Below, piece by piece: positions 6,475-10,335 of a stretch of 64,000 nucleotides of DNA. The stretch is from Escherichia coli. Lineage in GTDB: Bacteria; Pseudomonadota; Gammaproteobacteria; Enterobacterales; Enterobacteriaceae. Under the pieces are notes generated by a model that ran no database searches, had not been told where the DNA came from, and worked only from the letters and a program-made list of their open reading frames with translations. The stretch lies in NCBI RefSeq assembly GCF_003334385.1, contig NZ_QOWN01000008.1. The stretch is one strand, 5' to 3'. Within the stretch, counting starts at the first letter, position 1, and the number at the start of each line of letters is the position of its first letter. The translations under genes and the position numbers were made by a program.

Positions 6475-6479
6475 TATTG

Positions 6480-6690
<211 letters not shown>

Positions 6691-6707
6691 CCCAACAGGA
6701 CACACTC

Positions 6708-8145: not shown

Positions 8146-8796
8146 TTACATGGCGTAGTAATACGCTTTCACCTGCTCCCAGTCCGCTTTGGGGATTGGC
8201 TCCAGATATTTTTCCAGCTGGCGGAAGTCATGATTAATCGCTTTATCGCGACGCAAGCGGCGACGACTTTTCTCCAGGTCAAGAAAACCAGCTTCTGCAT
8301 TACCTTCTGTTTTCACATAGATATGGCGAACATAACAACAGCCATGTTGACGATTAATGCTATGCATTTTCTTAAACGCCAGCGCCACTGCTTTCAACAT
8401 GGCTTGCCGTACTTCGTCAGAATAAGGCGATACTGCATGCTGGGCATACCAGTCAGCAATGCTGATGAACCCCGCCATATCTTCAGTCACCAGCAACGCT
8501 CGCCATTCACCCTCAATTTTCACCGCTTCACCAAAAACGATCTTCGGCACGATGACACCGGCCCGTTCCAGTTCTTTAATTACCGCAACCTCACGGACAA
8601 TCGTTGGTCGGCCGAACGGATAACGTACGGAATGAAACAGATGATGCGTCATGCGCTTTACATACAGCTTTTTGCCGTTGCGCTCGACGCATTGCACCCC
8701 GCTCATACCATTACGGCGATAGTTAGGCTCTTCAACCCAGTCGCCCTCTGTTGCCCACCAGTGATTAAATTCGTCGTACTTTGCTGAAACTGCCAT
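8146..8796 (-). CDS. inaA: Acid-inducible Kdo/WaaP-family kinase-like protein InaA (216 aa)
   Basis: ORF 8146..8796; translation MAVSAKYDEFNHWWATEGDWVEEPNYRRNGMSGVQ... matches recalled InaA. Confidence 0.92.
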   Translation of the reverse strand: MAVSAKYDEFNHWWATEGDWVEEPNYRRNGMSGVQCVERNGKKLYVKRMTHHLFHSVRYPFGRPTIVREVAVIKELERAGVIVPKIVFGEAVKIEGEWRALLVTEDMAGFISIADWYAQHAVSPYSDEVRQAMLKAVALAFKKMHSINRQHGCCYVRHIYVKTEGNAEAGFLDLEKSRRRLRRDKAINHDFRQLEKYLEPIPKADWEQVKAYYYAM

Positions 8797-9010
8797 ACCC
8801 TATCGCCTGTCATTTTTATTAACGACAATGACTATAGGTGGTTACCTGAGGAAAATCTTAATGAAACGTGTCGTATTAATGAATTTCTTTTGCCACTACT
8901 AGCTTGACACCGCTTTTACCCTTCATTTGCAGCGCATAGATTCCACCAGCCACTACCACTAATAGTGCGCCCAGCAGATAAAATGTGAATTTAATCAGGC
9001 GGATACAGCG

Positions 9011-9217
9011 ATGAATTTTATTCGACAGGGATTAGGCATCGCCTTACAACCAGAGTTAACGCTGAAAAGCATTGCAGGTGAATTGTGTTCCGTTCCTCTC
9101 GAACCAACTTTCTATCGACAGATTTCGTTGCTGGCTAAAGAAAAGCCGGTAGAAGGCAGTCCACTGTTTTTACTACAAATGTGCATGGAACAATTAGTGG
9201 CGATTGGAAAAATTTGA
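9011..9217 (+). pseudogene. yfaH: Remnant encoding only the C-terminal effector-domain fragment of a LysR-family regulator (68 codons)
   Basis: ORF 9011..9217 (MNFIRQGLGIALQPELTLKSIAGELCSVPLEP...) resembles the C-terminal substrate-binding region of LysR-type regulators; no N-terminal HTH domain is encoded upstream. Corresponds to the K-12 yfaH fragment as recalled. Confidence 0.6.
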
Positions 9218-9224
9218 TATGAGA

Positions 9225-9250
9225 CAGGATGGCGCATGAACGCCATCCTG
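9225..9250. terminator. GC-rich hairpin (caggatggcg-catgaa-cgccatcctg) between convergent yfaH remnant and glpQ; candidate glpTQ terminator
   Basis: Perfect 10-bp inverted repeat with a 6-nt loop directly downstream of the glpQ stop; no strong T-run, so assignment is tentative. Confidence 0.4.
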
Positions 9251-9258
9251 CAGTAACA

Positions 9259-10335
9259 TTACTCTTTATTAAGAAATTTTACTGCCTTATCAGGGAAATC
9301 AGTAAACAGCCCATTTACACCCGCTTTGTTATACAGAGCATCATATAACTGATTCACATCAGGAGTGTATTCAGGCAGTTTATCTGACCGCACGGTATAA
9401 GGATGCACTACCAGTTTATTCTGCTGAGCATCTTGCACCATGCCAGTGAGTTTGATATTACCCGGCTGCGATGTCTCCTCAATCAACATATGGTAATCCG
9501 GACCAATACCATCTGCATATTCCGCCACCTGTTTCATGGCACCCGGCTTAAACATCCAGTCGTAGTTGTAATTAACCCAGCTTCCATCCGGCTGTTTCTG
9601 CTGCGTTTCATTCCAGTCGGTATAGGCAATCAGCTGTACCAGATTGAGCTCCATGCCCATTTTGGGTTCCAGCTCATTCTTAATACGCTTCAGCTCATCA
9701 GCATCAAAACATTGCAAATAAACTTTATCGTCTTTACCGGTGTAACCATATTTCTTCAGCACTTCCAGCGTTTTTGCCGCAATATCCTTCCCTTCCTGAT
9801 GATGGAACCACGGCGCTTTGATTTCTGGATAAATACCGATATTTTTCCCGGTAGAGTGATTTAACCCCTGAACAAATTCAATCTCTTCTTCAAAGGTGTG
9901 CACCCGGAAGTCGGACTTACCCATTGGGAAACGCCCCGGATAAGTCTGCACTTTTTTACCGTTTTCAATATCGAAACCTTCGGTAAATTTCAACGACTTA
10001 ATTTCATCCAGCGTGAAATCTATCGCGTAGTAACGACCGTCTTTGCGCGCCCGATCCGGGAAACGATCGGCAACATCAGTAACACGATCGAGGTAATGGT
10101 CATGCAGAACAACCAGATTGTCGTCTTTGGTCATCACCAAATCCTGTTCCAGATAATCCGCTCCCTGCGCATACGCCATCGCTTTTGCTGGCAGCGTATG
10201 CTCCGGCAAATATCCACTGGCACCGCGATGGGCGATGACTATTTTTTCGTTGCTGTCCGCCGCCATTGCACTGCTTCCCATGACTATAGTGCTCATCATG
10301 ATCGCCATGCTAAGGTTTTTCAGCGTCAATTTCAT
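9259..10335 (-). CDS. glpQ: Periplasmic glycerophosphodiester phosphodiesterase (358 aa)
   Basis: Start taken at the ATG at 10335 (MKLTLKNLSMAIMMSTIVMGSSAMA, signal peptide), matching recalled GlpQ; the ORF-track start at 10392 is a 19-codon in-frame extension overlapping glpT. Confidence 0.94.
   Translation of the reverse strand: MKLTLKNLSMAIMMSTIVMGSSAMAADSNEKIVIAHRGASGYLPEHTLPAKAMAYAQGADYLEQDLVMTKDDNLVVLHDHYLDRVTDVADRFPDRARKDGRYYAIDFTLDEIKSLKFTEGFDIENGKKVQTYPGRFPMGKSDFRVHTFEEEIEFVQGLNHSTGKNIGIYPEIKAPWFHHQEGKDIAAKTLEVLKKYGYTGKDDKVYLQCFDADELKRIKNELEPKMGMELNLVQLIAYTDWNETQQKQPDGSWVNYNYDWMFKPGAMKQVAEYADGIGPDYHMLIEETSQPGNIKLTGMVQDAQQNKLVVHPYTVRSDKLPEYTPDVNQLYDALYNKAGVNGLFTDFPDKAVKFLNKE

What the first reader, a model, noticed from the sequence alone, without database searches (positions are those of the whole stretch)
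9011..9217. yfaH: orphan C-terminal fragment of a LysR-type regulator
Only the effector-domain tail of a LysR-family protein is encoded, and no DNA-binding N-terminus is present upstream. This looks like a decayed regulator lying between inaA and glpQ. It may mark an ancient deletion or rearrangement junction.
Basis: partly seen in the sequence, partly recalled or inferred. Interest (0 to 1): 0.2.

Follow-up and report, generated by a model that had tools for sequence, protein, structure and literature searches.

The report
Deletion scar: LysR and transporter remnants
yfaH is the dead tail of a LysR-type regulator, left when a single 1,879-base deletion removed most of a regulator-transporter gene pair between inaA and glpQ in the E. 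coli K-12 lineage; it is an ordinary pseudogene that public annotation already flags.

Summary
Window 9011-9217 (+) is a 68-codon ORF in E. coli K-12 between inaA and glpQ, and it is the C-terminal tail of a LysR-type regulator.

E. coli O157:H7, strain MB22, E. whittamii, cryptic Escherichia clades, Kluyvera and Pseudocitrobacter have an intact divergent pair at this site: a 396-aa MFS transporter and a 292-aa LysR regulator.

K-12 lost 1,879 bp between two 8-bp direct repeats (CAGATAAA, window 8975-8982). The deletion removed:
- 361 of the 396 transporter codons;
- the shared promoter region;
- LysR residues 1-212, including the helix-turn-helix.

Two remnants meet at the junction. One is the LysR tail (8975-9217, +).

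The same junction is in 3,116 of 5,426 complete E. coli genomes.

The remnant evolves neutrally:
- pN/pS is about 1, against 0.08-0.2 for the same codons of intact genes.
- Its ATG is a derived substitution; intact genes have ATC or ATA (Ile) there.
- 189 genomes carry a frameshift and 2 carry a stop codon.

RefSeq already marks both fragments as pseudogenes. This is ordinary and of low interest.

The parts
8975..9217 (+). LysR-family regulator pseudogene remnant: residues about 212-292 of a 292-aa parent, i.e. the end of the effector-binding domain plus the C-terminal tail. The HTH and most of the effector domain are deleted.
   Evidence: PGAP marks it as a pseudogene, 'missing N-terminus'. 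It is collinear with intact LysR genes in L002 and L003. The intact parent has HTH_1 at residues 3-63 and LysR_substrate at 88-267.
9011..9217 (+). The 'yfaH' ORF as historically annotated (68 aa). It is an ATG-delimited subset of the remnant. The ATG comes from a substitution in the Ile225 codon of the parent (ATC in L002/L003, ATA in L006/L007).
   Evidence: NCBIfam NF007272 (a 68-aa model) also matches residues 226-292 of the intact LysR at 145 bits.
8975..8982 (.). Deletion junction: the single surviving copy of the 8-bp direct repeat CAGATAAA. In intact alleles this repeat flanks the 1,879 bp that are missing here.
   Evidence: The repeat copies start at L002 4126 and 6005, and at L003 1680 and 3559, both 1,879 bp apart. 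BLAST homology blocks overlap at window 8970-8982.
8876..8980 (-). MFS transporter pseudogene remnant: the last 34 codons plus the stop of a 396-aa transporter. It has no start codon and no promoter.
   Evidence: PGAP marks it as a pseudogene, 'missing N-terminus'. The K-12 translation YLLGALLVVVAGGIYALQMKGKSGVKLVVAKEIH* compares with YLLGALLVVVAGGVYALQMKGKSGVALVVAKEIH* in the intact gene.
8797..8875 (.). Spacer between the inaA start codon and the end of the former MFS gene. It is kept in every structural variant, and the inaA promoter presumably lies here (inference).
   Evidence: It is homologous in K-12, O157:H7, MB22, EcN-type and cryptic-clade loci. The consensus scan found no sigma-70-like site.
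9224..9251 (.). Hairpin with a 12-bp stem between the LysR stop (9215-9217) and the glpQ stop (9259-9261). It is probably the glpQ and former LysR terminator stem. It lacks a canonical U-run.
   Evidence: Folding gives dG -23.7 kcal/mol, z = -5.5. The simple terminator scan did not flag it. It is conserved in L002, L003 and L010.

Best explanation
The inaA-glpQ spacer of E. coli K-12 (window 8797-9258) is the scar of one deletion. The ancestral locus held a divergently transcribed pair: a 396-aa MFS transporter on the minus strand and a 292-aa LysR-type regulator on the plus strand, separated by a roughly 150-bp shared promoter region. A 1,879-bp deletion between two 8-bp direct repeats (CAGATAAA), one near the 3' end of each gene, removed three things. 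These were the first 361 codons of the transporter, the whole intergenic control region, and LysR codons 1-212 (the wHTH, the linker helix and most of the effector domain). The likely mechanism is RecA-independent slipped-strand or illegitimate recombination; this step is inferred. What remains is 35 codons of the transporter (8876-8980, -) abutting 80 codons of the regulator (8975-9217, +). 'yfaH' is the longest ATG-started ORF inside the LysR remnant. It has no DNA-binding domain, no complete effector pocket, no native start codon and no native promoter. It drifts neutrally, so it is a non-functional pseudogene. The deletion happened once, in an O157/MB22-like allele, and is now in 57% of complete E. 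coli genomes.
For: Shown by tool results:
(1) K-12 identity and pseudogene flags on both fragments.
(2) An intact MFS plus LysR pair at the same site in O157:H7, MB22 and EC1515. The same pair, with nrdB-yfaE-(inaA)-MFS-LysR(-glpQ) synteny, occurs in E. whittamii, two cryptic Escherichia species, Kluyvera and Pseudocitrobacter.
(3) Base-exact boundaries: the left homology ends at window 8982, the right homology begins at 8970-8978, and the CAGATAAA repeats are 1,879 bp apart in two intact alleles.
(4) A junction-spanning 70-mer is covered at 80% or more in 3,116 of 5,426 genomes.
(5) All 7 sequenced carriers analysed share the same junction and the same derived substitutions: Y>C at 8985, H>Q at 8998, I>M at 9013, S>N at 9015 and D>G at 9078. 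This indicates a single origin.
(6) Selection is relaxed. pN/pS for K-12 against the nearest intact alleles is 0.97-1.22. Intact-versus-intact comparisons over the same 79 codons give 0.08-0.20 in nearly all pairs. Derived changes in carriers are 20 nonsynonymous to 4 synonymous, against 7:28 between intact genes (Fisher p = 2.6e-6).
(7) Further decay: a 1-bp frameshift allele is matched exactly in 189 genomes, and a Gln6>stop allele in 2.
(8) The ATG at 9011 is ATC or ATA (Ile) in the four intact E. coli alleles read at nucleotide level, and Ile in all eight intact proteins.
(9) There is no sigma-70-like site and no Rfam family above threshold in the region.
(10) yfaH has been replaced by a marker as a neutral linked site for strain construction (PMC2714960).
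Against: Most carriers still have the 68-codon frame open: the frameshift and stop alleles tested account for only about 6% of carriers. An open frame of 204 nt is expected to survive a few percent of neutral divergence, so this is weak evidence. One qRT-PCR screen detected a yfaH transcript that rose 7.7-fold in a cpxR deletion strain overexpressing NlpE (PMC9600279), so the DNA is not transcriptionally silent. The pN/pS estimates rest on few substitutions (about 14 for K-12 against the nearest allele). The slippage mechanism is inferred only from the junction microhomology. By my own approximate estimate, not a tool result, 8 bp or more of junction identity would arise by chance in roughly 1 in 10,000 random deletions.
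Confidence: 0.94

Rival explanations
1. yfaH has become a functional 68-aa small protein. For example, it could be a stand-alone LysR C-terminal piece that interferes with the oligomerisation of other LysR regulators, expressed from a new promoter with the newly created ATG.
For: The ATG is fixed in all 10 carriers inspected. The frame is open in most carriers. A transcript is detectable and responds to the CpxR background. NCBIfam holds a 68-aa 'equivalog' model for it.
Against: pN/pS is about 1, and derived changes are 20 nonsynonymous to 4 synonymous. A frameshift allele at codon 27 is matched exactly in 189 genomes, and a stop at codon 6 in 2. No promoter-like site was found. The NCBIfam model is simply the tail of the full-length LysR, whose residues 226-292 match it at 145 bits. 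The fragment lacks most of both effector subdomains. No paper in the searched library reports a YfaH protein or a phenotype.
Confidence: 0.03
2. The short K-12 arrangement is ancestral, and the full-length MFS-LysR pair in O157:H7 and others was built by an insertion.
For: About 57% of E. coli genomes have the short form. Another 1,057 genomes have no cassette at all.
Against: Both K-12 fragments are in frame and collinear with the 3' ends of complete genes. An insertion would have to complete two truncated genes at once. The intact pair sits at the same syntenic position in other Escherichia species, Kluyvera and Pseudocitrobacter. Intact genes are under purifying selection and the fragment is not.
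Confidence: 0.01
3. The same deletion arose repeatedly, because the 8-bp repeat acts as a slippage hotspot, rather than once followed by inheritance and recombination.
For: The deletion occurs on two backgrounds: without the downstream 1.7-kb insert (K-12) and with it (SCU-102).
Against: All carriers examined, SCU-102 included, share five derived substitutions next to the junction that no intact allele has. That points to one origin, with later recombination shuffling the flanks.
Confidence: 0.03

Closest known systems
LysR-type transcriptional regulators (LTTR: Pfam HTH_1 PF00126 plus LysR_substrate PF03466)
   Same: The fragment descends from a typical 292-aa LTTR. It is 93-96% identical at nucleotide level to the last 80 codons of intact orthologues at the same locus. 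The parent has the classic divergent arrangement with a target gene, here an MFS transporter.
   Different: It has no wHTH, no linker helix and only the last quarter or so of the effector domain. It cannot bind DNA or form a complete ligand pocket. It is not under selection.
Truncation pseudogenes of E. coli K-12 annotated by NCBI PGAP as 'incomplete; partial in the middle of a contig; missing N-terminus'
   Same: RefSeq annotates both fragments in exactly this category. The features match: a deletion junction, loss of start and promoter, neutral drift, and secondary frameshifts and stops in the population.
   Different: Nothing essential differs. The only notable detail is that one deletion truncated two divergent genes at once, so two 3' remnants abut tail-to-tail on opposite strands.
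Microhomology-mediated (short direct repeat) deletions in bacteria
   Same: The deleted segment is flanked by an exact 8-bp direct repeat and one copy is retained. No IS element or scar sequence lies at the junction.
   Different: The mechanism is inferred from the junction only. The event itself cannot be observed.

Membership tests
LysR-type transcriptional regulator (functional member) | N-terminal winged helix-turn-helix (Pfam HTH_1, PF00126) | tested here: not met
   The 68-aa peptide gives no HTH_1 match. Sequence upstream of 8975 belongs to the MFS remnant on the other strand. The intact parent has HTH_1 at residues 3-63.
LysR-type transcriptional regulator (functional member) | Complete effector-binding domain (Pfam LysR_substrate, PF03466, about 209 positions) | tested here: not met
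   Only model positions 144-189 are matched, at E = 0.0075. The parent covers positions 2-188 at E = 5.7e-36.
LysR-type transcriptional regulator (by descent) | Orthology to an intact LTTR gene at the same chromosomal position | tested here: met
   92.7-96.1% nucleotide identity to the 3' end of intact LysR genes between inaA and glpQ. NCBIfam NF007272 hits both the fragment and residues 226-292 of the intact protein.
Pseudogene (truncated remnant) | Loss of essential parts relative to intact orthologues, with defined deletion boundaries | tested here: met
   A 1,879-bp deletion between CAGATAAA repeats removes LysR codons 1-212, the promoter region and MFS codons 1-361.
Pseudogene (truncated remnant) | Relaxed selective constraint | tested here: met
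   pN/pS is 0.97-1.22, against 0.08-0.20 for the same codons of intact genes. Derived changes are 20 nonsynonymous to 4 synonymous (Fisher p = 2.6e-6).
Pseudogene (truncated remnant) | Additional disabling lesions segregating in the population | tested here: met
   A frameshift allele is matched exactly in 189 genomes and a stop allele in 2.
Pseudogene (truncated remnant) | No expression of a protein product | not testable with these tools
   A transcript has been reported by qRT-PCR (PMC9600279). The searchable papers hold no translation data. The consensus scan found no promoter-like site.
MFS transporter | Twelve-helix transporter core | tested here: not met
   Only the last 34 codons remain. 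The intact 396-aa gene matches MFS models.
Independent conserved small protein | Conserved native start codon and purifying selection on the short ORF | tested here: not met
   The ATG is ATC or ATA (Ile) in the intact alleles read. Substitutions follow a neutral pattern and disrupted alleles exist.

The most novel reading that the evidence does not exclude
After the deletion, an Ile>Met substitution created a start codon. The 68-aa LysR tail might then have become a new small protein, transcribed from a CpxR-sensitive promoter in the scar, that modulates other LysR-type regulators through its C-terminal contacts. That would be a case of gene birth from a pseudogene.
Probability: 0.03. Interest if true: 0.45.

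Novelty: already known. Interest (0 to 1): 0.08.

Why it matters
It matters little beyond correct annotation. yfaH should not be counted as a protein-coding gene or as an "uncharacterized protein" in K-12 omics lists, as two recent papers do. The 68-aa NCBIfam "equivalog" model NF007272 is only the tail of a full-length LysR regulator.

The locus is a clean, base-resolved example of a microhomology-mediated deletion that truncated two divergent genes at once. At least four structural states segregate in E. coli:
- the intact pair;
- the 1,879-bp deletion;
- IS-disrupted forms;
- a cassette-free spacer.

These states could serve as a simple lineage marker. The function of the lost MFS-LysR pair, which is intact in O157:H7, remains uncharacterised.

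Tried and rejected
- **Pfam and NCBIfam on the 68-aa peptide alone.** Pfam is only marginal (E = 0.0075). NCBIfam returns a self-referential 68-aa model. Neither settles the matter alone; the DNA comparison with intact loci does.
- **Promoter/terminator consensus scan and Rfam scan of 8600-9450.** No sigma-70-like site, no canonical terminator and no RNA family above threshold. I therefore dropped the idea that the scar hides an sRNA or riboswitch.
- **IS-mediated deletion.** Rejected. The junction holds no IS remnant, only the 8-bp repeat. IS4 and IS1 insertions occur at this locus in other strains, but they are separate events.
- **FRT or engineering scar in the EcN_Sk record.** Rejected. 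Its 201-bp spacer is natural sequence shared at 95-99% identity by 1,056 other genomes.
- **Literature search for 'b2238'.** It returned only irrelevant papers. The search for 'yfaH' gave no functional study.
- **Large protein-database searches and structure prediction.** Not run. The population DNA evidence already answered the question.

Full report
**1. What is there**

The window is E. coli K-12. The segment 8797-9258 is 100% identical to MG1655 and lies in the order nrdB, yfaE, inaA (-), [yfaH], glpQ (-), glpT (-).

Taken alone, the peptide matches the Pfam LysR substrate-binding domain only marginally (model positions 144-189 of 209, E = 0.0075). It also matches a 68-aa NCBIfam model named only "hypothetical protein" (NF007272).

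RefSeq/PGAP annotates two pseudogene fragments in this spacer, not one:
- a LysR family regulator "missing N-terminus" on the plus strand (window 8975-9217);
- a "hypothetical protein, missing N-terminus" on the minus strand (window 8876-8980).

**2. The intact form**

O157:H7 strain FRIK804 has three genes between inaA and glpQ (L002):
- a 396-aa MFS transporter on the minus strand;
- a divergently transcribed 292-aa LysR regulator, 151 bp away;
- a further 356-aa ORF.

Strain MB22 (L003) has the MFS-LysR pair without the third ORF. Its sequence downstream of LysR is collinear with K-12.

The intact LysR has HTH_1 at residues 3-63 and LysR_substrate at 88-267. The transporter matches MFS models. 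The NCBIfam 68-aa model matches residues 226-292 of the intact LysR at 145 bits, so that "family" is just the tail of the regulator.

**3. The deletion, to the base**

BLAST of the K-12 region against intact loci shows the left homology ending at window 8982. The right homology resumes at 8970-8978.

Reading the junctions gives the following:
- intact left flank: ...GCGCCCAGCAGATAAATCATTCGG...
- intact right flank: ...ACCCCACAGATAAAATATGAATTT...
- K-12: ...GCGCCCAGCAGATAAAATGTGAATTT...

The 8-bp direct repeat CAGATAAA starts at L002 4126 and 6005, and at L003 1680 and 3559. Both pairs are 1,879 bp apart. K-12 keeps one copy, at window 8975-8982.

The deletion therefore removed MFS codons 1-361, the whole divergent intergenic region and LysR codons 1-212. 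The surviving MFS piece translates as YLLGALLVVVAGGIYALQMKGKSGVKLVVAKEIH*. The intact gene has YLLGALLVVVAGGVYALQMKGKSGVALVVAKEIH*.

No IS sequence lies at the junction. By my own approximate estimate, not a tool result, 8 bp or more of junction identity would arise by chance in roughly 1 in 10,000 random deletions. Slipped-strand or illegitimate recombination between short repeats is thus the most likely mechanism. This is inferred, not shown.

**4. Direction of the change**

A scan of one genome per species found the LysR gene next to the MFS gene in several other taxa, in the same nrdB-yfaE-(inaA)-MFS-LysR(-glpQ-glpT) context. These are E. whittamii, two unnamed Escherichia species, Kluyvera georgiana, Kluyvera genomosp. 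3 and a Pseudocitrobacter MAG. The pair is therefore ancestral at this locus and the K-12 form is derived.

**5. Frequency and origin**

- A 70-nt probe centred on the junction is covered at 80% or more in 3,116 of 5,426 complete E. coli genomes, i.e. 57%.
- A cassette-free 201-bp spacer of the EcN type is found in 1,057 genomes.
- The rest have the intact pair, with or without the 356-aa ORF. 711 genomes have the full O157-type region.
- Some have other disruptions: IS4 inside the MFS gene (L006) or IS1 (H42, H43).

Ten carriers from across the identity range all show the same junction. Seven of them were analysed codon by codon. All seven share five derived substitutions that no intact allele has: Y>C at 8985, H>Q at 8998, I>M at 9013, S>N at 9015 and D>G at 9078. 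Among the seven is SCU-102, which combines the deletion with the downstream insert.

This argues for one deletion event, in an O157/MB22-like allele. The more divergent EC1515-type allele does not have the right-hand repeat. The deletion then spread by descent and recombination.

**6. Is the 68-aa ORF a gene?**

- **Start codon.** Position 9011-9013 is ATC in L002 and L003, ATA in L006 and L007, and Ile in all eight intact proteins. The ATG arose by substitution.
- **Selection, pairwise.** Over the 79 shared codons, K-12 against its nearest intact alleles gives pN/pS = 0.97-1.22. Nearly all comparisons among intact genes over the same codons give 0.08-0.20, and 0.06-0.25 over the full length.
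- **Selection, derived changes.** Carriers show 20 nonsynonymous to 4 synonymous changes. That is close to the neutral site ratio of about 3.4:1. It differs from the 7:28 seen between intact genes (Fisher p = 2.6e-6). That count treats multi-site codons one site at a time, so it is approximate.
- **Secondary lesions.** A 1-bp deletion at about 9088 shifts the frame after codon 26 in L018, L019 and L022, and is matched exactly in 189 genomes. A Gln6>stop change occurs in L017 and is matched exactly in 2 genomes.
- **Signals.** No sigma-70-like site and no Rfam family above threshold lie in the region.

Two points weigh against a completely inert locus. Most carriers still have the frame open, which is expected for 204 nt at a few percent divergence. 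One qRT-PCR screen detected a yfaH transcript that was higher in a cpxR deletion strain overexpressing NlpE (PMC9600279).

yfaH has also been replaced by a resistance cassette as a neutral linked marker for gyrA transductions (PMC2714960). No paper in the searchable library reports a YfaH protein or a phenotype.

**7. Verdict**

- The remnant starts at the junction (8975-8978), not at the ATG.
- A second remnant, the MFS 3' end, lies on the opposite strand and abuts it.
- The scar comes from a single 1,879-bp microhomology-flanked deletion now carried by most E. coli.

It descends from the LysR family but is not a functional member, because it has neither the HTH nor a complete effector domain. 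Public annotation already treats it as a pseudogene. Nothing here is surprising to a specialist, so interest is low.

Noticed in passing
L002 6260-7968 (inserted between window 9226 and 9227 equivalents): O157:H7-type strains carry a 1.7-kb AT-rich insert (33.6% GC against 43-50% for neighbouring genes), placed just 5' of the glpQ terminator hairpin. It encodes a 356-aa ORF with no Pfam, NCBIfam or PADLOC match. The full O157-type region is in 711 genomes. In SCU-102 the insert occurs together with the 1,879-bp deletion, and the ORF is frameshifted there.
   Followed up: partly
L006 7873-10040 and L007 3936-6103: Some E. coli strains (EC1515, FDAARGOS_944) carry a very divergent LysR allele. 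Its synonymous divergence from the O157 allele is about 0.7, and its nucleotide identity to K-12 across LysR and glpQ is 92.6%. Yet the adjacent MFS protein of EC1515 is identical to that of O157. This looks like an imported segment with a breakpoint in the MFS-LysR intergenic region.
   Followed up: partly
L005 6001-6201 (equivalent to window 8797-9258): 1,057 E. coli genomes have no cassette at all, only a 201-bp inaA-glpQ spacer. Its left 98 nt still align as far as window 8894, about 19 nt into the 3' end of the former MFS gene but diverged there. This suggests a second, older and larger deletion rather than a never-occupied site.
   Followed up: partly
L005 (NZ_CP172017.1, strain EcN_Sk): This record has InaA, GlpQ and GlpT proteins identical to those of K-12 but the cassette-free spacer. 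Only 2 genomes match that spacer at 99% or more, while 1,056 match at 95-99%. This may be a recombinant or otherwise unusual background.
   Followed up: no
L008 (JAIJJM010000334.1, 'MAG: Collinsella sp.'): A 3.5-kb contig binned as Collinsella (Actinomycetota) is 99% identical at protein level to the E. coli MFS-LysR-356-aa ORF-glpQ region. It is almost certainly a mis-binned E. coli contig.
   Followed up: no
L006 6147-7492; H42/H43: There are independent IS hits on the same cassette. IS4 is inserted in the MFS gene of FDAARGOS_944, and IS1A/IS1B lies in the region in strains 1283 and N1024. The pair seems to be dispensable and has been lost repeatedly in E. coli.
   Followed up: no
window 9224-9251: A strong hairpin with a 12-bp stem (dG -23.7 kcal/mol, z = -5.5) lies between the convergent LysR remnant and glpQ. 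It has no U-run, so the simple terminator scan missed it. It is conserved in cryptic Escherichia clades with compensated loop changes.
   Followed up: partly
window 6477-6700: The long TTG-started ORF listed upstream of nrdB begins with a translation rich in repeated Arg/Ile/Arg-Pro motifs (…[10 protein letters not shown]… twice). This is typical of REP/BIME palindromic repeats in the nrdA-nrdB spacer and is not coding sequence.
   Followed up: no
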